Shown in pieces: positions 40,235 through 51,400 of a DNA stretch of 64,000 bases. The stretch is taken from IMG/VR virus record IMGVR_UViG_3300037297_000135, positions 1 through 64,000 of that record; one strand, 5' to 3'. The translations under genes were made by a program, and so were the position numbers. The stretch's first letter is position 1. Each line of letters starts with the position of its first letter. Under the pieces are notes generated by a model. The model saw nothing but the letters and a program-made list of their open reading frames with translations. It made no database searches and was not told the origin of the DNA. The DNA is from a virus.

Positions 40235-42154
40235 TTGTTTATGGATGTTGTATTATGTCAATTTGGGAATATGATAGGCGATAATGTTTATTTGCCATAT
40301 TCTATAGGTTGTATTGTGTCTTATTGCAAGCCCAAAACAAAAGATATAAATTATAAGATGTTGTATATTAAAAAGGATATAAACACCATTTTGGACGAAA
40401 TAGGTACACCTGATGTGCTTGCAATGAGTTCATATATATGGAATCATCAATACAATCTCAGAATTGCAAAACTAATCAATATAAAAAACCCTCAAACAAC
40501 AATCATTTTTGGAGGGCATGAGATAAATGGATTTGATAAAGATATATTTCAAAAATATCCATTTATTGATTTTGTTGTGAATGGTGAAGGTGAATATACA
40601 TTTTATAAAATACTTCAATCATTAAAAGGCGAAAATCATTTTTTTTACAACCATACAATTAATATGGGTGGTTCAGCAATGATATTGAAACAAAAAAATG
40701 ATTTTATAGATATAAATGATATACCAAGTCCATATTTAACAGATATATTTGATGATATAATGAAAGAAAAATATAATTTTACAGCATCACTTGAAACAAA
40801 TAGAGGTTGTCCATATCAGTGTTATTATTGTGATTGGGGCAATCATAAGGTAACAAATAAAAAAATGAGATTGTTTAATGAAGACCGTGTAAATGCTGAA
40901 ATAGAATGGTTTGGGAAAAATAAAATAGATTTTGTTTTTGGTTGTGATAGTAATTATGGTTTTTATGGCAAAAGAGATATGAAGTTTATAGATGAAATAA
41001 TTGAAACAAAAAAGACATATGGATTTCCAAATAAATTTCGTGTTTGTTATACTAAAAATAGTGATGAAACAATTTTCAAAATGAATAAAAAATTAAATGA
41101 GTTCAATCTTTCGAAAGGGGCAACAATATCATTTCAAAGTTTTAATAAACAAACATTAAAAGCTGTTAAAAGAAAAAATATGGGTATACAAGATTTTCAA
41201 AAATATATATTAATGTATAACAAAGAAAATATTCCAGTATATACAGAATTAATATTAGGTCTTCCAGAAGAAACATATGAATCATTTAAAGAAGGATTTA
41301 ATATTTTATTAAATAATATGCAACATAGTAATATTGTTGTATATTATTGTCAGGTATTAGAAAATAGTAAATTAAATGAAAAAGAATATAAAGAAAAATA
41401 TGATATAAAAATATCAAAGATTCCAATGTATGCTACACATACAAAATTTGAAAAAGACCAGATATTTGAATATGAAAACATTGTTGTAAAAACAGAAAAA
41501 ATGTTTAGAACTGATTGGGTTTGGTCTTGTATGTTTAGTTGGAGTGTTCAAACATTTCATTGTTTGGGTTTAACTCAATATATAGCTATACATTTAAAAT
41601 ATGTATATGGAATTGAATACAAAGATTTTTATACTAATTTAATATATTTAGAATTTAATAATAGTATTAATTTAATAAAAAATGAATATTTTAAAGTTAT
41701 GCATATATTTAATCAGGTTGCAGTTGAAAAAGGAAGTTTTAAATATATAGTAGATGATATAAATTGGCCGATTGAAGAAGGAAGTTTTCTTCATTTTATA
41801 GATAATTTTGATTTGTTTTATTTAGAAATTGTGGAATTTTTATTTAAAAAATATCCTGAAATCGCAAAAAATAAAGAAATAACTGAATTGATAAATTTTA
41901 ACAAATATATGTTATGTAAATATAATGACAAAATTTTTCATATGAAGATGAATTATTCATTTGTAGATATATTTGAAAAATATTTTGAAACTGGAAAATA
42001 TGAATTTGAAGAATGTAAAAATAGAACATATTATCCAGCAACAAAAAAATATAAAAATTTTAAAGATTTTGCTATAAATGTAGTTTGGTATGGTCGTAAA
42101 GGTGGAAAAACATTTAAGAATTTAAATGATATTAAAGTAGAGTATATTAAATGA
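40235..42154 (+). CDS. Cobalamin-binding radical SAM enzyme
   Basis: LPYSIG, SSYIWN, IFGG.E, GEGE (B12-binding); ETNRGCPYQCYYCDWG (CxxxCxxC); ELILGLPEET. Confidence 0.92.
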   Translation: MFMDVVLCQFGNMIGDNVYLPYSIGCIVSYCKPKTKDINYKMLYIKKDINTILDEIGTPDVLAMSSYIWNHQYNLRIAKLINIKNPQTTIIFGGHEINGFDKDIFQKYPFIDFVVNGEGEYTFYKILQSLKGENHFFYNHTINMGGSAMILKQKNDFIDINDIPSPYLTDIFDDIMKEKYNFTASLETNRGCPYQCYYCDWGNHKVTNKKMRLFNEDRVNAEIEWFGKNKIDFVFGCDSNYGFYGKRDMKFIDEIIETKKTYGFPNKFRVCYTKNSDETIFKMNKKLNEFNLSKGATISFQSFNKQTLKAVKRKNMGIQDFQKYILMYNKENIPVYTELILGLPEETYESFKEGFNILLNNMQHSNIVVYYCQVLENSKLNEKEYKEKYDIKISKIPMYATHTKFEKDQIFEYENIVVKTEKMFRTDWVWSCMFSWSVQTFHCLGLTQYIAIHLKYVYGIEYKDFYTNLIYLEFNNSINLIKNEYFKVMHIFNQVAVEKGSFKYIVDDINWPIEEGSFLHFIDNFDLFYLEIVEFLFKKYPEIAKNKEITELINFNKYMLCKYNDKIFHMKMNYSFVDIFEKYFETGKYEFEECKNRTYYPATKKYKNFKDFAINVVWYGRKGGKTFKNLNDIKVEYIK

Positions 42155-42462
42155 TTATTGATGAAACTAAATTTTTTGATAAAAATAATATAAAGATAAA
42201 AGAATTTGATATAGTAAAATGTTATCCACATAAAAATGATACAGACCACAATATAGAAATAGGTATAGTTTTAAAAACTAAAGAAAATGGATGTTTTGAA
42301 TATATTTATAGATTAAATACACTTTGGTATGGTAAAAATAGATTGTCAAGTTATTCATATGGGAAATGGAGTTATACTTTATTTGATTTTGATAATAAAA
42401 TAGATTCAAAATATGTTGAAGTAATTGGTAATGCTTTATTAAATGATATAGATGATTTTTAG
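42151..42462 (+). CDS. YopX-like phage protein
   Basis: DKNNIKIKEFDIV and EVIGN motifs. Confidence 0.5.
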   Translation: MIIDETKFFDKNNIKIKEFDIVKCYPHKNDTDHNIEIGIVLKTKENGCFEYIYRLNTLWYGKNRLSSYSYGKWSYTLFDFDNKIDSKYVEVIGNALLNDIDDF

Positions 42463-42474
42463 GAGGATATAAAG

Positions 42475-43695
42475 ATGTTTGAATATGATGTTTGTGTTGT
42501 AGGTTTGGGAAGAGTTGGTTTACCTTTGGCATTAGCTTTTGATAATGCAGGTTTGAAGGTTTTTGGAATTGATTTGAATGAAAAAATATTAAAAAGTATA
42601 GAACATAAAGAAATGCCTTTTAAAGAAAAAGGATGTCAAGAATTGTTAGAGAAATCAAATTTGACTGTATCAAATGAATATGATGAAAATGTATTTAAAT
42701 GTGAAAACATTGTGATTTGTATAGGAACTCCGATTTTGAAAAATCGAGAAATTGATTTTTCATATTTAAAAAATGTTTTAGACAGCTTGATTCCATATAT
42801 ACAAATTGACCAAAATATTATTTTACGAAGTACAGTTAAACCATTATTAAGCGAAAGAATAAAAGAGTATATTGAATCAGAAAAAAATATGAAGTGTGGT
42901 TACGATTTTTATTTCAGTTTTTGTCCTGAAAGATTAGCTGAAGGCAAAGCATTAGAAGAAATTCAAAATTTGCCACAAATTATAGGTTGTGAAGATGATA
43001 AATCTTTTTATAAATCATCAATTTTATTCAGTAAAATTGTAAAAAAGGAAAGTTTGAAAACAACCTTATTAAATGCTGAACTTTCAAAAGTGTTTTTAAA
43101 TATGAGCAGATATGCTTATTTTGGGATAGTTAATTATTTAACTATTTTAGCTGATACATATAATTCAAATATACATGAAATATTGGAAATATCAAACAAC
43201 AATTATCCTAGACCAATTTTATTTGGACCAGGATTAACAGCTGGAACATGTTTAGTTAAGGATTGGAGAATGCCTGATGCTGATACGATGTATAGCAGTT
43301 TCTTTGAAACAATTGATTCAATCAATCAAAATATTATACAATATTTTTTACCAGATATTGAATCTTGTGTGATAAAAGATGAGTCAATTGGTATTTTAGG
43401 TTATACATTCAAAGCGAATTCAGATGATACAAGAGATTCTATTGTTCCGAATATCATAAGATATTTTGAAAACAGATTTTATAAAAAAATTATGATTCAT
43501 GATTCAAATGTAAACATTGAAGATGTACCTGAAGAACATTGTAAATACTTTAAATCATTTGATGAAGTTAAAAAAGCAGATGTTTTGATTATAGCTGTAA
43601 ATCATGATGAATATAAAAATCATATATATTCAAATGAAGTTGTTTTTGACATTTGGAATATAACTAAAAAAAATAAAATAATTCAATATAATTAG
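42475..43695 (+). CDS. Nucleotide-sugar 6-dehydrogenase (UDP-Glc/GDP-Man/UDP-HexNAc family)
   Basis: VGLGRVG, LRSTV, CPERLAEG, catalytic GTCLVKD, GYTFKANSDDTRDS. Confidence 0.93.
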   Translation: MFEYDVCVVGLGRVGLPLALAFDNAGLKVFGIDLNEKILKSIEHKEMPFKEKGCQELLEKSNLTVSNEYDENVFKCENIVICIGTPILKNREIDFSYLKNVLDSLIPYIQIDQNIILRSTVKPLLSERIKEYIESEKNMKCGYDFYFSFCPERLAEGKALEEIQNLPQIIGCEDDKSFYKSSILFSKIVKKESLKTTLLNAELSKVFLNMSRYAYFGIVNYLTILADTYNSNIHEILEISNNNYPRPILFGPGLTAGTCLVKDWRMPDADTMYSSFFETIDSINQNIIQYFLPDIESCVIKDESIGILGYTFKANSDDTRDSIVPNIIRYFENRFYKKIMIHDSNVNIEDVPEEHCKYFKSFDEVKKADVLIIAVNHDEYKNHIYSNEVVFDIWNITKKNKIIQYN

Positions 43696-43712
43696 TAAGG
43701 ATTAATAATAAA

Positions 43713-43985
43713 ATGGTTGTTACGTGTATTGTTAGTATTTTTGAATACGAAGATTTCGAAATAATTTATTGTTTAATTGATGACGAAACTTATGAACTTG
43801 ATATTGATATTGCAATTGGAGATATGATTGATGATGGTTTGTTGTACCCTGATAAAAAATATTGTATAATATTTGATATAGATTATGAAAAAAGTGATTG
43901 GTATGATGATTGGGATATTGTTTTAAATCTAAATCATTTTTTTGAAATTGAATCATTTGAGGAGATTGAAGATGAAGAATTTTGA
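43713..43985 (+). CDS. Small acidic protein
   Basis: D/E-rich ORF. Confidence 0.55.
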   Translation: MVVTCIVSIFEYEDFEIIYCLIDDETYELDIDIAIGDMIDDGLLYPDKKYCIIFDIDYEKSDWYDDWDIVLNLNHFFEIESFEEIEDEEF

Positions 43986-44445
43986 AATTGAACATCAAGG
44001 AAAAAAATATTGGGTTTCAAGAAGTTGTGCGGTAAGTGCTTTTGTTAAAGGATTTGATAAAAATGGTGATGAATATGTACTTGCGATAACAAGAGGAAAA
44101 GCTTCACCAGATAATATAGGTAAAAAATGTGTACCATGTGGTTATTTAGATGGAGATGAAACATTATTAGATTGTGTTGTAAGAGAAGTATTTGAAGAAA
44201 CAGGGCTTAAAATTAATAAAGATAAATTTGAATATATAGAATTTAGTGATGATTTAAGCAACAATTATCAAAATATTTCATTTAGATATAAGACTGTAAT
44301 ATTAAGTATTGAAAAGAATATTCCATATATTACAAATATTGAAGAAAATGAAGTTGATGAAGTTAAATGGATAAAACTTGATGATATTGAAAAATATGAT
44401 TGGGCTTTTAATCATTTAGAATTAATAAAAACATATATTTGTTAA
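43972..44445 (+). CDS. NUDIX hydrolase
   Basis: PCGYLDGDETLLDCVVREVFEETGL Nudix box; WAFNH. Confidence 0.88.
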   Translation: MKNFEIEHQGKKYWVSRSCAVSAFVKGFDKNGDEYVLAITRGKASPDNIGKKCVPCGYLDGDETLLDCVVREVFEETGLKINKDKFEYIEFSDDLSNNYQNISFRYKTVILSIEKNIPYITNIEENEVDEVKWIKLDDIEKYDWAFNHLELIKTYIC

Positions 44446-44451
44446 TCATAT

Positions 44452-44526
44452 AGGGGTATAGCTTAATTGGCTTAAAGCGACAGTCTCCAAAACTGTTAGA
44501 TGTCGGTTCGAATCCGACTACCTTTG
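44452..44526 (+). tRNA. tRNA-Trp(CCA)
   Basis: ACAGT-CTCCAAA-ACTGT; GTCGG-TTCGAAT-CCGAC. Confidence 0.9.
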
Positions 44527-44552
44527 TTCAAATAAAAAAAAGAGGTATTTAA

Positions 44553-44798
44553 ATGAATAATAAATTTGTTTTTGAATGTCCTGAATGCAAGGGGAAAAGC
44601 AAAATTGATTTAACAAGAGAAGAAATTATAAAAACATATATTGGTTCAACAACAGATTGTAGTTATTGTAATGCTTTGTTGCAGATTAGTGAAGATTTAA
44701 CCGTTATAAATTTTGGTAAAAAACTTCAAAAAGCATATGAAAAAATGGGATGCAAATGTACAATTGAAGAAGCAAAAAATAGTTTTATTGAATTTTAA
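44553..44798 (+). CDS. Small zinc-ribbon protein
   Basis: CPEC...CSYC. Confidence 0.6.
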   Translation: MNNKFVFECPECKGKSKIDLTREEIIKTYIGSTTDCSYCNALLQISEDLTVINFGKKLQKAYEKMGCKCTIEEAKNSFIEF

Positions 44799-44802
44799 AT
44801 TT

Positions 44803-44873
44803 GGCGGATTACTCTAGTGGCAGGAGAACCGACTTTCTATCGGTTAACAACAGTTCGATTCTGTTATCCGTCA
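44803..44873 (+). tRNA. tRNA-Glu(TTC)
   Basis: Acceptor GGCGGAT/ATCCGTC; ACCGA-CTTTCTA-TCGGT; AACAG-TTCGATT-CTGTT. Confidence 0.82.
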
Positions 44874-44877
44874 TTTT

Positions 44878-44951
44878 GGGTCTTTAACTCAGATGGTTAG
44901 AGTGTTCGGTTCATACCCGAATTGTCAGAGGTTCAAGTCCTCTAAGACCTA
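44878..44951 (+). tRNA. tRNA-Met/Ile2(CAT)
   Basis: Acceptor GGGTCTT/AAGACCT; TTCGG-TTCATAC-CCGAA. Confidence 0.88.
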
Positions 44952-44963
44952 TTTATACATACA

Positions 44964-45036
44964 GGACATTTAGCTCATTTGGTAGAGCATTCGGCTTTTA
45001 ATCGAAGGGTGCAGGGTTCAAATCCCTGAATGTCCA
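44964..45036 (+). tRNA. tRNA-Lys(TTT)
   Basis: Acceptor GGACATT/AATGTCC; TTCGG-CTTTTAA-TCGAA. Confidence 0.92.
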
Positions 45037-45048
45037 TTTTGATTGTAG

Positions 45049-45252
45049 GTGAATAAAATGAGATATACAAAAAAGTTATTAGATAAAAGAATATGTGATG
45101 TTGAAAAAAATTGTGATATCACTAAAACTTATAGAGAATGGCTTGAAGATTTAAGTGAACAAATAATTGGTATAAAATTGAATTTTGATTCAATGAATGA
45201 TGATGAATTAAATAATGCAGTTGATGAATTGATTTGGCTTTCATACAAATAA
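45049..45252 (+). CDS. Hypothetical protein
   Basis: Small ORF between tRNAs. Confidence 0.5.
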   Translation: MNKMRYTKKLLDKRICDVEKNCDITKTYREWLEDLSEQIIGIKLNFDSMNDDELNNAVDELIWLSYK

Positions 45253-45325
45253 GTTGAAGTAGCTCAGTTGGTAGAGCATCGGACTGAAAATCCGAGTGTC
45301 AATGGTTCAATTCCATTCTTCAACA
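45253..45325 (+). tRNA. tRNA-Phe(GAA)
   Basis: Acceptor GTTGAAG/CTTCAAC; TCGGA-CTGAAAA-TCCGA. Confidence 0.93.
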
Positions 45326-45329
45326 TTTT

Positions 45330-45445
45330 TGCCCCTGTCTGGCGACGTGAAGAATAATTGGTATATTAATGGTTTCAGTATACGTACGGTGCTGTAAGTT
45401 AATATATGGCAAATTCGAGTAACAGTTCGATTCTGTTCGGGGTAA
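45330..45445 (+). ncRNA. tRNA-like RNA with T arm and acceptor-like helix but a long central hairpin
   Basis: GCCCC/GGGGT ends; T arm AACAG-TTCGATT-CTGTT; TATATTAA/TTAATATA stem. Confidence 0.45.
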
Positions 45446-45464
45446 TAAATTAATTTAATAAAGG

Positions 45465-45704
45465 ATGATTGAAATTAATATTGAAAATGAAATAAAATTA
45501 TTAATTGAAAAATGCAAAAGAAGAAGAAAAGAACTTGGATTAAGTCAAAGACAAGTTGGAGAAAAAATCGGAAAACATAAAAATGTTATTGAATCAATTG
45601 AAAATTTTAGACATACTCCCAATATAGGTTTGTTTATTTTATATGCTAATGCTTTAGATTTAGAAATAATAATTTCTAAAAAACAATATACAATATTAAA
45701 TTAA
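45465..45704 (+). CDS. XRE-family HTH regulator
   Basis: RRKELGLSQRQVGEKIG...IESIEN...P.I...ANAL. Confidence 0.85.
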   Translation: MIEINIENEIKLLIEKCKRRRKELGLSQRQVGEKIGKHKNVIESIENFRHTPNIGLFILYANALDLEIIISKKQYTILN

Positions 45705-45715
45705 AAAACAAATAT

Positions 45716-45786
45716 GCGTATGTAATTTAACGGTAGAATATTAGATTACCAATCTAATTGTGAGAGTTCGATTCTCTTCATACGCT
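45716..45786 (+). tRNA. tRNA-Gly with unusual ACC anticodon
   Basis: Acceptor GCGTATG/CATACGC with U73; TTAGA-TTACCAA-TCTAA; GAGAG-TTCGATT-CTCTT. Confidence 0.8.
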
Positions 45787-46003
45787 TTTTTTTATTGTTT
45801 TGTATACGCTTGTTTCTAGCGTTTTTATTTATGTAAAACGATACTTTGTTCGATTAAAAAAAACTGTGAAGCTACAAACGAGTCTATACAAAAAACACCT
45901 TTCAAACTATCTAATTCACTGGGTTTAAACAATATAGACAAACCCTGATAAACACAGGGATTGATTAAATGTATATAATTTTATATGAATAGGGGATAAA
46001 AAA

Positions 46004-46981
46004 ATGAAAATTTTAATTACGGGAGCTTATGGATTTATAGGTTTTCATTTAGCGAATTTTTTATATTCAAAAGGACATCAAATTTGTTTAATTGACAATT
46101 TTTTCAAAAATCAAGATACTGAAGAAGCACATATAATGTATGAAGAATTTGTTTATGACAAAAACATTTGTAGTTTTGATTTAGATTTGACTGATTTTTC
46201 AAATGTTGATTGGGCTTTAACTGAAAAAGAATTTGATATTGTATTTCATTTAGCTGCAATTAATGGAACAGAAAATTTTTATAGAAGGCCAACAAAGATA
46301 ATTGAAAACAATTTTTTAGCTACAATGAATGTTTTAAAAAATATAAAGTGTAAAAAATTTGTGTTTACATCTAGTTGTGAAGCTTATGCAAGCACAGTAA
46401 ATCAAAATATATGTGATATACCAACAAATGAAAAAGTTTTGTTAAGTGTTGAAGATATAATGAATCCTAGATGGAGTTATGGAGGAACAAAGATTTTAGA
46501 AGAATTGTATGTAAAAAACTATTGTACTGAAAACAATATAGATTTTTTAATTTTAAGGTATCATAATATATATGGTATCAGAGATTCACTAAAACATGTT
46601 ATACCAGCATTGTTTAAAAGATGTTTTAGCGAAGAAGATTTTGTGAATATTTATGGAAATTGCACAAGGTCTTTTTTATATATTAAAGATTGTATTGAAT
46701 ATACAATGAGATTGGCAGAATCAAAACATTGCAAAAATGATATATATAATGTTGGAATGCAAGAAGAAGTTTCAATTAAAGAAGTTGTACAAAATATATT
46801 GAGTATATTTAATGTTAATAAGTTGATAAAAATATATGATAAACCAGAAGGTTCGGTTTTAAGAAGATGTCCTGATATGCAAAAAACTATAAATGCAACT
46901 GGATTTAAACCAAAATATAATTTGTATACTGGTTTAAATGAAATGGCTTGGTATTATGAGAAAAAAGGTATTGTGATATAA
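46004..46981 (+). CDS. NAD-dependent epimerase/dehydratase (extended SDR, UDP-uronate decarboxylase-like)
   Basis: ITGAYGFIG, HLAAING, TSSCEAY, PRWSYGGTK, RYHNIYG, TRSFLYI, RRCPD. Confidence 0.92.
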   Translation: MKILITGAYGFIGFHLANFLYSKGHQICLIDNFFKNQDTEEAHIMYEEFVYDKNICSFDLDLTDFSNVDWALTEKEFDIVFHLAAINGTENFYRRPTKIIENNFLATMNVLKNIKCKKFVFTSSCEAYASTVNQNICDIPTNEKVLLSVEDIMNPRWSYGGTKILEELYVKNYCTENNIDFLILRYHNIYGIRDSLKHVIPALFKRCFSEEDFVNIYGNCTRSFLYIKDCIEYTMRLAESKHCKNDIYNVGMQEEVSIKEVVQNILSIFNVNKLIKIYDKPEGSVLRRCPDMQKTINATGFKPKYNLYTGLNEMAWYYEKKGIVI

Positions 46982-47008
46982 TATACATATATTTTAAAGA
47001 TTGGAGAG

Positions 47009-47488
47009 ATGTTAATGTATGTATTGTTAACACCAAAAGGAAAGTGGAAAATAAATGAACAAGGTGAAAAAATAAAATGGATTCATTTAAAAGGATATAT
47101 AGAAAATCCTCAAGAATATATGTTAAAAGCATATTTCAAAGAAAACTATAAAGATATAATTCAAAATTTAAGAGTAATAAATATAGCTCATAAAGTAAAA
47201 TGTGAAGTAATGTATAAAAATAGTGGATATGATATATATGTACTAAAAACAAATAATAAATATTTTGTTTATTCAGATAGGTATAATGAATTAAAAATAT
47301 ATTGTAATGTATATATGATGAAAGAAATATCAAAAAAAATATTAAAAGAAATAAAAGAAAAAAAAATAAGGCTTGATAATCGAGATTTCAAATTATTGAA
47401 AAAAATACAAGAAGTTAAAAATATTAAAGAATTAAAACAAATAGAAATTAAAAAATTTTTAACATTAAAAGAAACCTATATTATATAG
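47009..47488 (+). CDS. Hypothetical protein
   Basis: ORF with RBS GGAG. Confidence 0.5.
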   Translation: MLMYVLLTPKGKWKINEQGEKIKWIHLKGYIENPQEYMLKAYFKENYKDIIQNLRVINIAHKVKCEVMYKNSGYDIYVLKTNNKYFVYSDRYNELKIYCNVYMMKEISKKILKEIKEKKIRLDNRDFKLLKKIQEVKNIKELKQIEIKKFLTLKETYII

Positions 47489-47576
47489 GTTTCTTTTATA
47501 TATGAGCAAAACAGAAGAATGTTTTAATATTATTATATTATTTATTTTATTTATTGTAAATAGGGGAGTGAAAAAA

Positions 47577-48338
47577 TTGAATATACCAGAATGGGATAAT
47601 AGAATTTCACCATTGCATTTTAAAAGTGAAATGTTTATTGATTATATTTCACAAATCAAATTATGCATTAAAGAAAAAGCACCGTATTCATGGATTCGTA
47701 TAGGTGATGGAGAAGAGAATGTTTTAGGTCAAGATTATATTTATCCATCAAATAACGTAAGAGCACATGTAAGTTGGTGGAATAATTCAAATTATTGTGG
47801 AACAACATTACCTAATTTAGAATTGCGTGATAGAATGATTGAAGCATATAAAGGTTCAGAAGCAGTAGGATTATTTATTGAACAAAATAGTGTTACAATA
47901 AAAATTTTCAATAAAATAGGGATTCAGCCAAGGCAAATTTTTTATGGATATGATAATGTACATTTGCCTATGAATCCAATATTTGTTAGAATGTTATGTG
48001 AGAATAAAATTTTAGTAGTTGGAGGTGGAAATAGAAATGGACGGAATGGAGAATATTTTGTAAAAAAAATAAAAGAAAAATTGGATATTGATATTGATTT
48101 TGTAAATGGTATAAAATCATATATTGATATTGAAAATTGTATGAATCAAATAAGGAAAAAAGAATTTGATATTGCTTTAGTGTGTGCTGGTGTAAATGCT
48201 AAGGTAATATGTTGGGAGTTGTCCAGAGAAATGAATAAAGTATTTATGGATTTTGGACATGCTTTTGACAATGCTTTTTATGAAGATGAAAAAGGAAATT
48301 ATAAAGATTATTTTTTACTTGACAAAACAATGATATAA
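47577..48338 (+). CDS. GT-D-fold glycosyltransferase-like protein
   Basis: SWIRIGDGE, ILVVG, IALVCAGVNAKVIC, MDFGH. Confidence 0.75.
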   Translation: MNIPEWDNRISPLHFKSEMFIDYISQIKLCIKEKAPYSWIRIGDGEENVLGQDYIYPSNNVRAHVSWWNNSNYCGTTLPNLELRDRMIEAYKGSEAVGLFIEQNSVTIKIFNKIGIQPRQIFYGYDNVHLPMNPIFVRMLCENKILVVGGGNRNGRNGEYFVKKIKEKLDIDIDFVNGIKSYIDIENCMNQIRKKEFDIALVCAGVNAKVICWELSREMNKVFMDFGHAFDNAFYEDEKGNYKDYFLLDKTMI

Positions 48339-48439
48339 TATTAAAATAAATATGTAAAGTCGATATAGGATGTTTTTTCTTAAGTTATTTTCAAATAGGT
48401 AAAAAAAAAGATTTGTGAATCACAAGTCTTTTTTTTTAT

Positions 48440-48468
48440 TTGACATATAAATTAATTAATGATATTAT
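48440..48468 (+). promoter_or_regulatory. Sigma-A type promoter (extended -10) upstream of the tRNA-mimic RNA trio
   Basis: TTGACA, 17-bp spacer, TGnTATTAT; preceded by a terminator hairpin at ~48402-48438. Confidence 0.7.
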
Positions 48469-48487
48469 AATTAAAAGAAACAAACTT

Positions 48488-48588
48488 AATGTGATTTTAG
48501 AACTAATAGCTCAATTGTTAGAGCATTAGAATTTTAATCTAAAGGTTAAGGGTTAAAATCCCTTTTTGTTCAACGATAGAATTGCATT
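48488..48588 (+). ncRNA. Y-RNA-like element 1: degenerate tRNA-Lys-like core inside a closing helix
   Basis: AATGTGATT/AATTGCATT outer helix; core 48500-48572 with TAGCTCAATTGTTAGAGC, TTAGA-ATTTTAA-TCTAA and T loop TTAAAAT. Confidence 0.6.
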
Positions 48589-48636
48589 TTCATTGTTTCT
48601 TTTTCTTAAATAAAAATTTTTAAAAGATAAAAACTT

Positions 48637-48748
48637 TATGTGATTTCAGAATATTAAAATAGCTCAATTGGTAGAGCACAATAATGTGGATATTGATGTT
48701 GTGGGTTCAATTCCTACTTTTAAACAAAAATTCAATTGCAATCGCATA
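48637..48748 (+). ncRNA. Y-RNA-like element 2: tRNA-His-like core inside a closing helix
   Basis: TATGTGATT/AATCGCATA helix with AATTGCA motif; core with TAGCTCAATTGGTAGAGC, CAATA-ATGTGGA-TATTG and GTGGG-TTCAATT-CCTAC. Confidence 0.62.
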
Positions 48749-48786
48749 TGCATTTTATCTTTTATTTAAATATATAATTAGAAACT

Positions 48787-48912
48787 GAGTGTGATTTCAG
48801 AATATTTTTATAGGTTCAAATCCTATTCCCCGCTTAAATATGCGGGGATGGTGCAATTGGTAGACACACTTGAATATAAATCAAGCAAATTAAAATTAAT
48901 AAAATTGCACTC
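48787..48912 (+). ncRNA. YrlA-like Y RNA: circularly permuted tRNA-like module
   Basis: GAGTGTGATTT/AAATTGCACTC helix. Order is T arm (ATAGG-TTCAAAT-CCTAT), loop-closed acceptor stem (TCCCCGC...GCGGGGA), D arm (GTGCAATTGGTAGACAC), anticodon-like arm. Confidence 0.7.
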
Positions 48913-48939
48913 TTATTCTAATTTTTTAAGGATGGTTTT

Positions 48940-50445
48940 ATGGAAAAATTTAATTTTGATGCAAGTATTCTTCAATTCACGCCAAAAGGGTCATATTACA
49001 ATACTGAATCTGAACAAAATCAAAAAATAACAGAGCAATGGAAAGAGTTTTTGCAATATGATAGATTGCTTTTTGCATTGATTTTGTTTTTACCAACTTC
49101 AGATTATGCTTTTGGAAGAATAAGTCATTTGTTATGTAAAAATAAAACTACTGAGATAGTTTCTAAAGATTTTAAAATAACTAATGATTTTGAAGAGAAA
49201 ATAATATTGAATGGTTTAAGAAAACAACCAATGCCAAGAGCACTAAAGAATCTTTTAATGTTTACAAATGCAAACATTGGAAGAGTGAATAATGCTAAAG
49301 TTCGAAATATAATATTGAAATATATATTTCAAAGGGATTTAAATTCATTGGATTCAATGTGTTGTAATTTTAAAGATAAAATAAAATTGCTTTTGAAACA
49401 TGTATATGGTAAAAAGATTTGGAGGGTTTTAAATGGGAGAAATTTATTTGGTATAACAAATGTGCATGAAAGAGCATTAGATGTTTTGAAGTTTTGTTTC
49501 AACAAATCTTTTGATACAAAAGATTTAAATATGATGAATGCATATATATGTTTAAGAGAATATGCAAAAGAAAATAGATTGGATTCATTTTTAGATTTAG
49601 CTAAAAAATCAAAAATGAACATTGAAATTTTGATAGGCTTTAAAGCTTTATATAAATTAAATATTGATTTAAGTGAAATATATGATGCTGGAAATATGAG
49701 TGAAAAACAAAAGATACAAAAGGTAAGAGCAGTTGAAAGAACTGGAACTAAACAAGATATAAATTATAAAAATTATGATATATATGATTTGTATAAGATG
49801 TTTTATGTAAAATTAACAAACAATGAAACAAATGATATGGATTTGATTGCTGAAGCAATTGAATTTCAATCAAATAAAAAAATGGATATTGATTTAGGTG
49901 AAATTGTAGTGATTATGGATGCAAGTAAATCTATGATTGGTTCCGAAACAAGACCATATCATCCATTTTTAACAGGATTGAGTTTAGTAAGTAAGTTGCC
50001 AAATGTAAAAGATGTAATGTTTGTTGGTGGTGAATATGTTGATACATATTCAAATAATATGCCAAAAGCAATTGTACCAAGTGGAGCAACAAAAATTTGG
50101 GAATCTTTAATTCAAGCTGTAAATAAATATCCTGATACAATTGTTTTGATATCTGATGGTTATGAAAACAATGTAAAAGGATTAACAAATCAAATATATG
50201 AAAAATTAAAAAAAGAAGGTAAAGAATTTAATATTATACATATAAATCCTGTTTTTGCTGCTGAAACAGGAAATGCAAGAAGATTGATAAAAGAAATAAA
50301 ACCATTTATAATTGAAAATTATAGAATGATTAAAACAAATCTTATATTTCAACTTATAATGGATAACAAAGAATTAGCAATCAAGATGTTGTTTAATGAA
50401 TATAAAAAATTAGAAGTTAAAGAATTGAAAAGGTTAAAAGGGTGA
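48940..50445 (+). CDS. Helical + C-terminal vWA protein, divergent Ro60/TROVE-like
   Basis: 501 aa; MIDAS DASKS, GATKI, ISDGYEN; N-terminal helical region; directly downstream of the tRNA-mimic RNAs. Confidence 0.55.
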   Translation: MEKFNFDASILQFTPKGSYYNTESEQNQKITEQWKEFLQYDRLLFALILFLPTSDYAFGRISHLLCKNKTTEIVSKDFKITNDFEEKIILNGLRKQPMPRALKNLLMFTNANIGRVNNAKVRNIILKYIFQRDLNSLDSMCCNFKDKIKLLLKHVYGKKIWRVLNGRNLFGITNVHERALDVLKFCFNKSFDTKDLNMMNAYICLREYAKENRLDSFLDLAKKSKMNIEILIGFKALYKLNIDLSEIYDAGNMSEKQKIQKVRAVERTGTKQDINYKNYDIYDLYKMFYVKLTNNETNDMDLIAEAIEFQSNKKMDIDLGEIVVIMDASKSMIGSETRPYHPFLTGLSLVSKLPNVKDVMFVGGEYVDTYSNNMPKAIVPSGATKIWESLIQAVNKYPDTIVLISDGYENNVKGLTNQIYEKLKKEGKEFNIIHINPVFAAETGNARRLIKEIKPFIIENYRMIKTNLIFQLIMDNKELAIKMLFNEYKKLEVKELKRLKG

Positions 50446-50449
50446 TGAA

Positions 50450-51400
50450 ATGGATATTTTGAGTAAATTAGGTTTTAAAAATATAGAATATGATGAAATG
50501 CAAATTGTAGACGAAATGAGTATGATTCCTCTTTTATCAGATGGTTTAAGTAAAAACATTTCATCACCTGAAAATATACAATTTTTTGAAGTTGGAACTT
50601 ATGGTTCAATGGAGTTTAAAAATGCAGATAGCAATACCAACAACTATGGGATTGTGCCATCAAATACAATGATTTTAAACAACAAGGTACAAGTTCAAGA
50701 CCATGCAATGATTGAAGCAGGTGTTGTAAAAGCAGGTACATATAAAAATTTTAGTAATGCGTGTTGTGTTCAAGAAAAACAACATGGATTTTTAAATGGT
50801 ACGAATAAAAATAATGAATATGATATTTTGCCTTTGGGTTTAAGAAGGGCAGCAACAAGAGAAAAATTAAGACAGGATTGCAATTGTGGTAAACTTTGGC
50901 CTGCAATCAGAGAATGGTTAAAAGGTTTTAATTTTATGGAAAGTTATGCTCATTTAGAATATTTTTTTACTCCATTCAAAAAACAATTAGATGATTTTGT
51001 TGCAGAATTTGAACCAGTTAAAAATCAAATAGGAGCAATAATTCTATTTGGCAATATGTTAGCAGGCATAGAAATTATGCCTACAATTGAACATTGGAAT
51101 CATTATTGGAAATGGTTGGTTCGAGGATGTTATGGAGCTGAATTGTTAAAAATACGTGAAATTGGACAAATCGAATTGAAATCAATTTCAATACCAGAAA
51201 TGCCTTTTGACTCAATAAATAATTATTTAAATATGTTAAAAGATACAATTTTAAATAGTTTGAACTTAAACTTTAATGAATTGGGAAGTAAAAACTATGG
51301 TGAAAATCAATTAAAACATAAACTAATAAAAATTGAATCTGGTGGTGGAGATTTGATTTTAGAAAACAATAAACCAATATATTTAAGTTGTGTTTTGTGA
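50450..51400 (+). CDS. Conserved protein, ARPP-1 (DUF6569)-like
   Basis: QDHAM, NACCVQE, ILPLGLR, KLWPAI, AHLE, FVAEFEPV.NQIGAII, RGCYG; family recalled from memory. Confidence 0.4.
   Translation: MDILSKLGFKNIEYDEMQIVDEMSMIPLLSDGLSKNISSPENIQFFEVGTYGSMEFKNADSNTNNYGIVPSNTMILNNKVQVQDHAMIEAGVVKAGTYKNFSNACCVQEKQHGFLNGTNKNNEYDILPLGLRRAATREKLRQDCNCGKLWPAIREWLKGFNFMESYAHLEYFFTPFKKQLDDFVAEFEPVKNQIGAIILFGNMLAGIEIMPTIEHWNHYWKWLVRGCYGAELLKIREIGQIELKSISIPEMPFDSINNYLNMLKDTILNSLNLNFNELGSKNYGENQLKHKLIKIESGGGDLILENNKPIYLSCVL

What the first reader, a model, noticed from the sequence alone, without database searches (positions are those of the whole stretch)
48488..48748. Whole tRNA-Lys-like and tRNA-His-like cloverleaves embedded in Y-type closing helices
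Seen: unlike YrlA, units 1 and 2 keep the normal D-anticodon-T order, with anticodons TTT and GTG. They have defects (T loop TTAAAAT, C32 replaced by A, weak or mismatched acceptor stems) and their ends are extended into the shared helix. Inference: non-translating anticodon-loop decoys, possibly intermediates from tRNA to Y RNA. Lys and His are known nuclease targets.
Basis: partly seen in the sequence, partly recalled or inferred. Interest (0 to 1): 0.7.

Follow-up and report, generated by a model that had tools for sequence, protein, structure and literature searches.

The report
Whole tRNA mimics inside phage Y RNAs
A 130-kb phage carries, just upstream of a very divergent Ro60-like gene, two complete tRNA-shaped RNAs (Lys-like and His-like) held in the same two-helix clamp as a neighbouring Y-RNA-like unit; about 75 related phage loci have the same design with freely varying anticodons, so these are most likely protein-bound tRNA mimics and not decoding tRNAs.

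Summary
ARAGORN and Rfam call tRNA-Lys(UUU) at 48500-48572 and tRNA-His(GUG) at 48653-48725. Each sits in a two-helix clamp (outer helix, ACU loop, UGUGAUU helix, UCAGA) shared with a third, YrlA-like permuted unit.

A promoter precedes the three units. They are followed by a 501-aa protein with a Ro60 fold and by an ARPP-1 protein, which follows the Ro-like gene in 97 of 97 related loci.

A covariance model built only from relatives scores the two units 85 and 84 bits. The phage's genuine tRNAs score 50-54. It finds such units in 75 of 85 related loci. All five helices covary.

Across 93 modules the elbow nucleotides, U33 and R37 are conserved. The anticodon triplet is nearly random: 29 anticodons, 24% with A34, eight UUA. 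UUU and GUG occur only here.

My reading is Ro-bound tRNA mimics, a non-permuted variant of tRNA-like Y RNAs. Non-translation is plausible. A Lys/His-specific nuclease decoy is not supported at family level. Binding, processing and charging are untested. Other first-reader notes of this scan on the same genome describe the same operon; none were on other DNA.

The parts
48400..48438 (+). Hairpin followed by a T run; likely terminator of the upstream GT-D-like gene, insulating the operon
   Evidence: Sequence read; the perfect hairpin is seen in the alignments
48440..48468 (+). Sigma-70-type promoter (TTGACA, 17 nt, TG-extended TATTAT); the start is predicted at about 48475-48477, the base of unit 1's outer helix
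   Evidence: 11 of 12 matches, TG before the -10. A consensus match only, not shown to be active
48473..48603 (+). Unit 1: outer helix 48473-48483 with 48593-48603; ACUU loop 48484-48487; inner helix 48488-48497 with 48579-48588; Lys-like cloverleaf 48500-48572
   Evidence: model R1 85.3 bits
48500..48572 (+). tRNA-Lys(UUU)-like cloverleaf: A32, U19:A56 in place of G19:C56, U5-U68 mismatch, A73, no CCA
   Evidence: 79% identical in its core to the phage's genuine tRNA-Lys
48621..48764 (+). Unit 2: outer helix 48621-48632 with 48753-48764; ACUU 48633-48636; inner helix 48637-48645 with 48740-48748; His-like cloverleaf 48653-48725
   Evidence: model R1 84.5 bits
48653..48725 (+). tRNA-His(GUG)-like cloverleaf: A32, A1-A72 mismatch, all-A/U acceptor extended by a GAAU/AUUC helix, C73, no G-1, no CCA
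48776..48923 (+). Unit 3: same clamp (outer 48776-48783 with 48916-48923; inner 48787-48797 with 48902-48912) around a permuted, YrlA-like module (T arm, closed acceptor hairpin, D arm)
   Evidence: (z -4.0); R1 28.8 bits from the clamp alone
48940..50445 (+). 501-aa Ro60-fold protein (helical ring domain plus vWA domain), not detected by Pfam TROVE
50450..51400 (+). 316-aa ARPP-1 family protein (PF20208), invariably downstream of the Ro-like gene in relatives
   Evidence: (97 of 97 loci)

Best explanation
Units 1 and 2 are Y-RNA-type non-coding RNAs of a phage Ro60-like ribonucleoprotein. They are not decoding tRNAs.

Proposed mechanism:
1. One promoter (48440-48468) drives three tandem RNA units, then the Ro60-fold gene and its fixed ARPP-1 partner.
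2. Each unit's 5' and 3' ends pair into a conserved two-helix clamp. Its single-stranded (G)ACU and UYAGA motifs lie on the 5' strand, and I infer that this clamp is the docking site for the Ro-like ring.
3. The clamp holds a variable module. In units 1 and 2 this is a complete, non-permuted, L-shaped tRNA mimic. In unit 3 it is a permuted, YrlA-like one.
4. The RNP displays the mimic. It is recognised by tRNA shape (invariant elbow, canonical anticodon-loop geometry) and not by its anticodon.
5. It thereby tethers or competes for a host or phage factor that handles tRNAs, during infection, when tRNAs are a common target of conflict.

Shown here: the anatomy, conservation, covariation, operon context and the Ro60 fold.

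Inferred: Ro binding, lack of charging, and the tether or competitor role.
For: Protein and operon:
- The downstream protein has the Ro60 fold. The top 13 PDB hits are all Ro60/TROVE, including phage phiLo Ro60, with E 6e-7 to 2e-4 and probability 1.0 (model pLDDT 87).
- In known systems Y RNAs lie next to Ro60 on the same strand, and phage Ro60 binds Y-like RNAs encoded upstream (PMC4201824; PMC12135203).

Clamp:
- Its motif occurs only three times in the genome.
- It is shared by about 330 units upstream of homologous genes, usually 3-6 per locus, in 84 of 96 loci.
- Many of those units hold only a 17-35 nt hairpin, so the clamp is the constant part and the insert the variable part.

Model and covariation:
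- Model R1, built without the window, gives 85.3 and 84.5 bits for the two units against 50-54 for true tRNAs.
- It gives 106 hits, all on the gene's strand, and all those I checked lie upstream of the gene; 75 of 85 loci have one.
- All 26 pairs show double changes. The covariation score is 0.767 against 0.195 for shuffles.

Signs that the modules do not decode:
- 29 anticodons occur in 89 loops, with A34 in 24% and UUA in 8.
- Triplet entropy is 1.5-1.9 bits. G18, G19, T54, T55, C56 and A58 have 0.17 bits or less. U33 has 0.38 bits and position 37 is always a purine.
- Both window units have A32, against Y32 in all 13 other phage tRNAs.
- Unit 2 lacks G-1.

Sign of selection on shape: unit 1's unique G19U change is matched by a unique C56A change, which keeps the elbow pair.
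Against: - There are no binding, transcript-end or charging data.
- The Ro relationship is structural only: TM about 0.5, 10-13% identity, no Pfam TROVE hit.
- The clamp lacks the published Ro-site motif GNCGAA(N)G. It has UYAGA instead.
- Unit 1 is a very good tRNA, with the second-best tRNA score in the window (69.5 bits). Its core is 79% identical to the phage's own tRNA-Lys.
- Unit 2 is the only tRNA-His call in the genome.
- None of the phage's genuine tRNAs encodes CCA either, so its absence here says nothing.
- Loops between the acceptor and the clamp could admit RNase P. M. smegmatis YrlA is cut by RNase P and receives CCA.
- Folding z-scores of units 1 and 2 are weak.
Confidence: 0.6

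Rival explanations
1. They are working phage tRNAs. The clamp is a precursor structure. RNase P and 3' nucleases release a tRNA-Lys(UUU) and the phage's only tRNA-His(GUG), which are charged and used to read the abundant AAA and CAU codons of a 25% G+C genome.
For: - Rfam scores are high, especially for unit 1.
- Unit 2 is the sole His call among 15 tRNA calls.
- Unit 1 keeps the Lys features UUU and A73.
- Tertiary positions are intact or compensated.
- 30 of 53 relatives with an acceptor helix encode NCCA right after it.
- An RNase P and CCA precedent exists in M. smegmatis YrlA.
Against: - Homologous units in the same clamp carry anticodons that cannot serve decoding: UUA, AUG, AUC, AUA, ACU.
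- Both units have A32, against Y32 in 13 of 13 true tRNAs.
- Unit 2 has no G-1 and an A1-A72 mismatch.
- The 5' leader is paired to the 3' trailer over about 20 bp in two helices.
- Their G+C content is the lowest of all tRNA calls.
- No other tRNA of the phage has the clamp.
Confidence: 0.12
2. One reading: they are anticodon-loop decoys that soak up host anticodon nucleases specific for tRNA-Lys and tRNA-His, held and stabilised by the Ro-like protein.
For: - The anticodon loop keeps canonical geometry: 7 nt in 89 of 95, U33 in 84 of 89, R37 in 89 of 89. Something may therefore read the loop.
- Fast turnover of the triplet between close relatives (for example tta to tat in L113 and L114) could reflect an arms race.
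- tRNA-Lys(UUU) is a classic nuclease target (own knowledge, not tested here).
Against: - Many family anticodons match no natural tRNA, so they cannot mimic a specific target.
- The triplet's composition looks like background A/T bias.
- UUU and GUG are not conserved anywhere else in the family.
- A32 departs from the natural Lys and His loops.
Confidence: 0.15
3. Only the clamp matters. The cloverleaves are captured tRNA genes drifting towards loss, and serve as neutral stuffing between clamp strands.
For: - Inserts are extremely variable, down to 17-nt hairpins.
- Units 1 and 2 carry mismatches and low G+C.
Against: - D, anticodon and T stems covary strongly across 95 units (99-100% and 96% of cells paired).
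- Elbow nucleotides are nearly invariant.
- Unit 1's paired 19:56 change is compensatory.
- Such modules are present in 75 of 85 loci.
Confidence: 0.06

Closest known systems
YrlA Y RNAs (Salmonella, Mycobacterium smegmatis, mycobacteriophages; Chen et al. 2014, PMC4201824)
   Same: - A non-coding RNA next to a Ro60 ortholog on the same strand.
- The 5' and 3' ends pair in a stem.
- The distal domain mimics tRNA, with T and D arms forming an elbow.
- M. smegmatis YrlA even has a 7-bp acceptor stem recognised by RNase P.
- Unit 3 of this window has the YrlA order (T arm, closed acceptor, D arm).
   Different: - Units 1 and 2 are not permuted. They have the D-anticodon-T order, a real 7-nt anticodon loop and an acceptor stem opening towards the clamp.
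- The clamp has two helices with ACU and UYAGA motifs and lacks GNCGAA(N)G.
- There are 3-8 units in tandem, against one or two for YrlA.
- The protein is far outside Pfam TROVE.
- That study discarded hits overlapping annotated tandem tRNA genes, a filter that could remove units like these where they are annotated as tRNAs.
Deinococcus radiodurans Yrn1
   Same: Per Chen et al., its tRNA-like part has T and D arms oriented differently from YrlA relative to the 5' end, with the stem-loop between them in the position of the anticodon arm. This is the nearest published analogue of units 1 and 2.
   Different: - Yrn1 has a 6-nt 'anticodon' loop, no variable arm, an uncertain D arm and no acceptor stem.
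- The units here are full cloverleaves that tRNA finders call as genes.
- Yrn1 tethers PNPase. No partner is known here.
Thermus phage phiLo Ro60 with Yrl1 and Yrl2 (PMC12135203)
   Same: A phage-encoded Ro60 with Y-like RNAs encoded directly upstream. Binding and a complex with host PNPase were shown. Its structure is among the fold hits of the window's protein.
   Different: The phiLo RNAs are stem-bulge-stem Y RNAs with a CGAA motif. No tRNA cloverleaf is reported and there is no ARPP-1 partner.
Ordinary phage-encoded tRNAs, including variants with altered anticodon loops that resist host nucleases (own knowledge, not checked in a paper here)
   Same: The cloverleaf, the phage origin and an altered position in the anticodon loop (A32).
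   Different: Those are free, charged, decoding tRNAs without a paired leader and trailer. Here the same clamp also holds non-tRNA inserts and tRNA-like modules with unusable anticodons.

Membership tests
Y RNA (Ro60-associated ncRNA) | Bound by a Ro60 protein | not testable with these tools
   Binding needs immunoprecipitation or a gel shift. Only the context is available.
Y RNA (Ro60-associated ncRNA) | Encoded within a few kb of a Ro60 ortholog, on the same strand | tested here: met
   The units end 17 nt before a Ro60-fold ORF. The same arrangement holds in 84 of 96 related loci.
Y RNA (Ro60-associated ncRNA) | 5' and 3' ends pair into a conserved stem with a bulge or internal loop | tested here: met
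   A two-helix clamp with an internal loop. Both helices covary, with 95-97% of cells paired.
Y RNA (Ro60-associated ncRNA) | Ro-site motif GGUCCGA or GNCGAA(N)G on the 5' strand | tested here: not met
   The conserved 5'-strand motif is UGU.AUUUC(A/U)GA preceded by GACU. It sits in a similar position but has a different sequence.
YrlA subfamily | Permuted tRNA-like domain (T arm, acceptor-like hairpin, D arm) | tested here: not met
   Units 1 and 2 have the normal order. Only unit 3 fits. No Rfam family other than tRNA matched the region, even at E up to 10.
tRNA (Rfam RF00005) | Cloverleaf scoring above the gathering threshold | tested here: met
   69.5 and 53.9 bits against 29.
tRNA (functional decoder) | Pyrimidine at position 32 and standard G19:C56 | tested here: not met
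   Both units have A32, and unit 1 has U19:A56. All 13 other phage tRNAs have Y32.
tRNA (functional decoder) | Released with free ends and aminoacylated | not testable with these tools
   Needs end mapping and charging assays.
Bacterial tRNA-His | G-1 paired with C73 | tested here: not met
   Position -1 is U. Position 1 is A opposite A72. C73 is present.
Ro60 / TROVE protein (the downstream ORF) | HEAT-repeat ring plus vWA domain | tested here: met
   AF2 model of pLDDT 87. The top 13 Foldseek hits are all Ro60/TROVE over about 540 aligned columns.
Ro60 / TROVE protein (the downstream ORF) | Match to Pfam TROVE (PF05731) | tested here: not met
   No hit in the protein scan at E 0.01 nor in a six-frame genome search at E 10. 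None of about 120 listed homologs carries a precomputed Pfam domain.

The most novel reading that the evidence does not exclude
The operon is a previously unrecognised three-part phage system, widespread in large uncultured phages. It consists of an array of clamp-held tRNA mimics, a Ro-like ring and an ARPP enzyme predicted to act on ribose. The clamp presents whole tRNA-shaped baits to the proteins. These baits have an invariant elbow, a canonical but freely evolving anticodon loop and, in many relatives, a bulged NCCA end. The system would sense, capture or reverse host attacks on tRNAs, at the anticodon loop or the 3' terminal ribose. Whole-tRNA, acceptor-less, permuted and hairpin modules within one array would then record how Y RNAs arose from tRNAs.
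Probability: 0.17. Interest if true: 0.85.

Novelty: new variant of a known kind. Interest (0 to 1): 0.68.

Why it matters
What the tRNA-like domain of bacterial Y RNAs does is still an open question. Here the mimicry is complete: tRNA finders call the modules as genes. It is non-permuted and repeated in arrays. It is tied to a fixed protein pair in about a hundred phage loci.

The conservation pattern is clear. The elbow and the anticodon-loop geometry are kept, and the anticodon triplet is free. That points to which part of the tRNA shape is being read, and gives a compact three-component system to reconstitute.

It also has a practical consequence. tRNA counts for large phages include such units: 38 clamp-held units were called as tRNA by ARAGORN here, several as 'suppressor' tRNAs with a UUA anticodon. 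This could mislead inferences about codon use or stop-codon recoding.

Tried and rejected
- **Rfam, relaxed threshold:** scanning the region gave only the two tRNA hits plus noise, and no Y RNA or YrlA family match.
- **Sequence searches of the 501-aa protein:** searches against Pfam, PHROGs, NCBIfam and PDB sequences, also with a 38-sequence profile, did not find Ro60. Only the fold search did.
- **Greedy helix finder:** too noisy. It was replaced by motif-anchored duplex folding.
- **Clamp motif scan of IMG/VR:** it returned 71 loci, but only 6 held the Ro-like gene. The rest are probably chance matches. No closer relative of the window was found.
- **The look-up of encoding contigs:** The closest locus obtained, L104, has clamp units but no whole-tRNA module.
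- **ARPP-1 partner:** it folds confidently but has no informative solved relative.
- **RNA-repair reading:** I looked for support in the phage and found no RtcB, no Rnl-type ligase and no CCA-adding enzyme.
- **Cellular homologs:** those at 20-27% identity (Yinghuangia, Gimesia, Calothrix, Labilithrix and others) have no such RNA units upstream.
- **Origin of unit 1:** whether it is a recent copy of the phage's tRNA-Lys is undecided (79% against 74% identity).
- **Reviews:** two reviews on bacterial Y RNAs were not held in the library. The novelty judgement therefore rests on the primary papers read.

Full report
**What is in the window**

The window is the first 64 kb of a 130,483-bp virus record that CheckV rates as complete. 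It has about 25% G+C, and all sizeable ORFs lie on the + strand. ARAGORN and the Rfam tRNA model both call two tRNAs inside the finding. One is Lys(ttt) at 48500-48572, scoring 69.5 bits. The other is His(gtg) at 48653-48725, scoring 53.9 bits. The gathering score is 29.

- Unit 1 has T loop TTAAAAT and D loop AATTGTTA.
- Both units have A at position 32.
- Unit 1 has a U5-U68 mismatch.
- Unit 2 has an A1-A72 mismatch, an acceptor stem made only of A-U pairs, C73 and no G-1.

The phage's 13 other tRNA calls all have C or U at position 32 and 34-46% G+C. The two units have 29% and 32% G+C. None of the phage's tRNAs encodes CCA, so its absence in the two units says nothing.

**The clamp**

The closing structure is larger than the finding's coordinates. 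Motif-anchored duplex folding shows the same four elements in each of three tandem units:
- an outer helix of 8-12 bp;
- a small internal loop whose 5' side reads ACU(U);
- an inner helix of 9-11 bp (UGUGAUU with AAUYGCA, including tandem U-G/G-U pairs);
- a UYAGA motif whose GA starts the acceptor-side helix.

Unit 1 spans 48473-48603, unit 2 spans 48621-48764 and unit 3 spans 48776-48923. Unit 3 holds a permuted module (T arm, closed 7-bp acceptor hairpin, D arm), which is the YrlA order.

The 13-mer clamp motif, with one mismatch allowed, occurs three times in the whole genome, all here and all on the + strand. The reversed control pattern gives no hits.

A hairpin followed by a T run (48400-48438) precedes the array. 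So does a near-consensus promoter with an extended -10 (48440-48468). The predicted transcript start falls at the foot of unit 1's outer helix.

By themselves, units 1 and 2 do not fold better than shuffled sequences (z -1.8 and -0.7), whereas unit 3 does (z -4.0). The case for the clamp therefore rests on comparison with relatives.

**The proteins**

The ORF that starts 17 nt after unit 3 (48940-50445, 501 aa) has no Pfam, PHROGs, NCBIfam or PDB-sequence match, apart from a faint vWA-like signal. It has more than 170 homologs, none carrying a Pfam domain.

An AlphaFold model from 38 homologs (pLDDT 87, pTM 0.81) hits Ro60 in its top 13 Foldseek matches. These include human and Xenopus Ro60, Deinococcus Rsr and the Ro60 of Thermus phage phiLo. 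E-values run from 6e-7 to 2e-4 and probability is 1.0, over about 540 aligned columns. TM is only about 0.5 and identity 10-13%. I take it as a very divergent Ro60-fold protein. It is not a Pfam TROVE member.

The next gene (50450-51400) belongs to the ARPP-1 family, PF20208. A homolog follows the Ro-like gene in 97 of 97 related loci that have at least 700 nt of downstream sequence. The family's describers predict an enzyme with a conserved Cys and Gln that acts on ribose moieties. They do not list a Ro-like neighbour among its contexts (PMC9503650). Its model is confident (pLDDT 92), but no solved structure resembles it usefully.

**Relatives**

I gathered 29 loci from IMG/VR and 80 from metagenomes that encode the Ro-like protein. 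Of the 96 loci with at least 600 nt upstream, 84 have clamp-type units there, usually 3 to 6, giving 328 units in all. The inserts fall into four kinds:
- 17-35-nt hairpins;
- acceptor-less D-anticodon-T modules;
- permuted modules, for example L126:553-693;
- whole cloverleaves.

ARAGORN calls a tRNA inside 38 clamp units.

I aligned 27 whole-cloverleaf units from relatives, leaving the window out. RNAalifold recovered both clamp helices and the D, anticodon and T stems, and 23 of 26 pairs showed compensatory changes.

The covariance model built from this alignment (R1) scores window units 1 and 2 at 85.3 and 84.5 bits. The phage's genuine tRNA-Phe and tRNA-Lys score 53.9 and 50.0 bits. Unit 3 scores 28.8 bits. 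The clamp therefore adds about 30 bits over a plain tRNA.

Over 100 sources, R1 finds 106 matches at E of 1e-9 or better, all on the gene's strand. Of the 85 loci with enough upstream sequence, 75 have at least one match. Matches also occur in the distant viral clades, where the protein is 21-25% identical, and on three MAG contigs. None occurs upstream of the weak cellular homologs on large chromosomes.

On the 95 distinct matches, 97.2% of pair cells form standard pairs. Shuffled partners give 68% and partners slid by 1-3 columns give about 40%. Every one of the 26 pairs shows double changes, and the covariation score is 0.767 against 0.195. That alignment is fitted to the model, so the numbers lean its way, but the margin is large.

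**What is conserved in the tRNA-like part**

In 93 distinct modules outside the window:
- The elbow positions are nearly invariant: G18 0.09 bits, G19 0.17, T54 0.15, T55 0.09, C56 0.09 and A58 0.09.
- The anticodon loop has 7 nt in 89 of 95 modules, U33 in 84 of 89 and a purine at position 37 in 89 of 89.
- The triplet itself has 1.52, 1.94 and 1.74 bits of entropy.

Twenty-nine different anticodons occur. A34 is present in 21 of 89 and UUA in eight. AUG, AUC, AUA and ACU also occur. UUU and GUG each appear once, only in the window.

Unit 1's T-loop change (C56 to A) and D-loop change (G19 to U) are each unique in the set, and together they keep a Watson-Crick elbow pair. This argues for selection on the L shape and against decay.

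Fifty-three of the 95 modules have an acceptor-like helix of at least 5 bp. Thirty of those encode CCA within 5 nt after it, bulged between the acceptor and the clamp. The window's two units do not.

**Interpretation**

The constant part is a clamp next to a Ro60-fold gene. The variable part is often a tRNA mimic. This is the Y RNA design of a Ro-binding stem plus an effector module. Known bacterial Y RNAs mimic tRNA, and phage Ro60 binds Y-like RNAs encoded upstream (PMC4201824; PMC12135203).

I therefore read units 1 and 2 as Ro-bound tRNA mimics. I think their shape is what matters and their anticodon does not. They most likely tether or compete for a factor that recognises the tRNA elbow and loop geometry.

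None of this binding is shown, and the clamp's motif differs from the published GNCGAA(N)G site.

**Rival readings**

- **Genuine tRNAs.** Unit 1 is an excellent tRNA-Lys, 79% identical in its core to the phage's own. Unit 2 is the only His call in the genome. M. smegmatis YrlA is cut by RNase P and receives CCA. Against this stand the family's unusable anticodons, A32, the missing G-1 and the paired leader and trailer.
- **Lys/His-nuclease decoy.** This is weakened by the lack of any conservation of anticodon identity. The conserved loop geometry leaves room for a loop-reading partner.
- **Neutral remnants.** Covariation and the invariant elbow contradict this.

The phage has no RtcB, no Rnl-type ligase and no CCA-adding enzyme. 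A self-contained repair pathway is therefore not supported.

**Novelty**

tRNA-like Y RNAs and phage Ro60 with Y RNA are both known. D. radiodurans Yrn1 has a partial tRNA-like domain in the same orientation as units 1 and 2.

In the papers I could read, I found no description of the following:
- whole, non-permuted cloverleaves, often with NCCA, held in a Y-type clamp;
- their occurrence in tandem arrays;
- the pattern of a free anticodon with a fixed elbow;
- the fixed pairing of a Pfam-invisible Ro-like protein with ARPP-1.

[quoted passage not shown] Only one GenBank phage record holds a homolog, a 462-kb uncultured phage at 23% identity. Two reviews were not available.

I rate the finding as a new variant of a known kind.

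Noticed in passing
window 50450-51400 and L001-L029, L104-L183: An ARPP-1 family gene (PF20208) directly follows the Ro-like gene in 97 of 97 related loci with at least 700 nt of downstream sequence. This pairing is not among the ARPP contexts listed in PMC9503650. The protein folds confidently but has no informative solved relative.
   Followed up: partly
L002, L113, L118, L125, L133, L158, L179 (units upstream of the Ro-like gene): Clamp-held tRNA-like units with anticodon UUA are called 'tRNA-Stop' by ARAGORN. In surveys of large phages they could be mistaken for ochre suppressor tRNAs and taken as evidence of stop-codon recoding.
   Followed up: partly
relatives, e.g. L118:2009-2143, L012:2672-2802, L010:535-669: Thirty of 53 modules with an acceptor-like helix encode N-CCA right after it, looped out between the acceptor and the clamp. 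The window's units lack it.
   Followed up: partly
window 45716-45786: A tRNA-Gly with anticodon ACC, an A34 anticodon unusual for bacteria and phages, lies in the phage's ordinary tRNA cluster. It has no clamp.
   Followed up: no
window 48548-48573: Unit 1's T arm followed by a T run was flagged as terminator-like. If it terminates at all, it would lower expression of units 2-3 and the two genes.
   Followed up: no
L021:5569-5787: A group I intron (Rfam RF00028, 81.6 bits) lies downstream of the Ro-like/ARPP-1 pair in a distant viral relative.
   Followed up: no
L185, L186, L190, L196, L208, L244 (genome contigs): Weak homologs of the Ro-like protein (20-27% identity, partly only the vWA part) occur on large chromosomes of Yinghuangia, Gimesia, Calothrix, Labilithrix and others. 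They have no clamp-type RNA units upstream.
   Followed up: partly
window 40235-48338: The genes upstream of the operon are sugar-related: a B12-binding radical SAM enzyme, a UDP-glucose dehydrogenase-like protein, an NDP-sugar epimerase/dehydratase and a GT-D-like glycosyltransferase. They are interleaved with the phage's tRNA cluster.
   Followed up: no
L099 (IMGVR_UViG_2615840593_000003), first 410 nt, minus strand: Four loose matches to the clamp motif cluster at one end of this locus (a stretch of a 155-kb viral contig). No Ro-like gene lies in the fetched stretch, so it may be another array.
   Followed up: no
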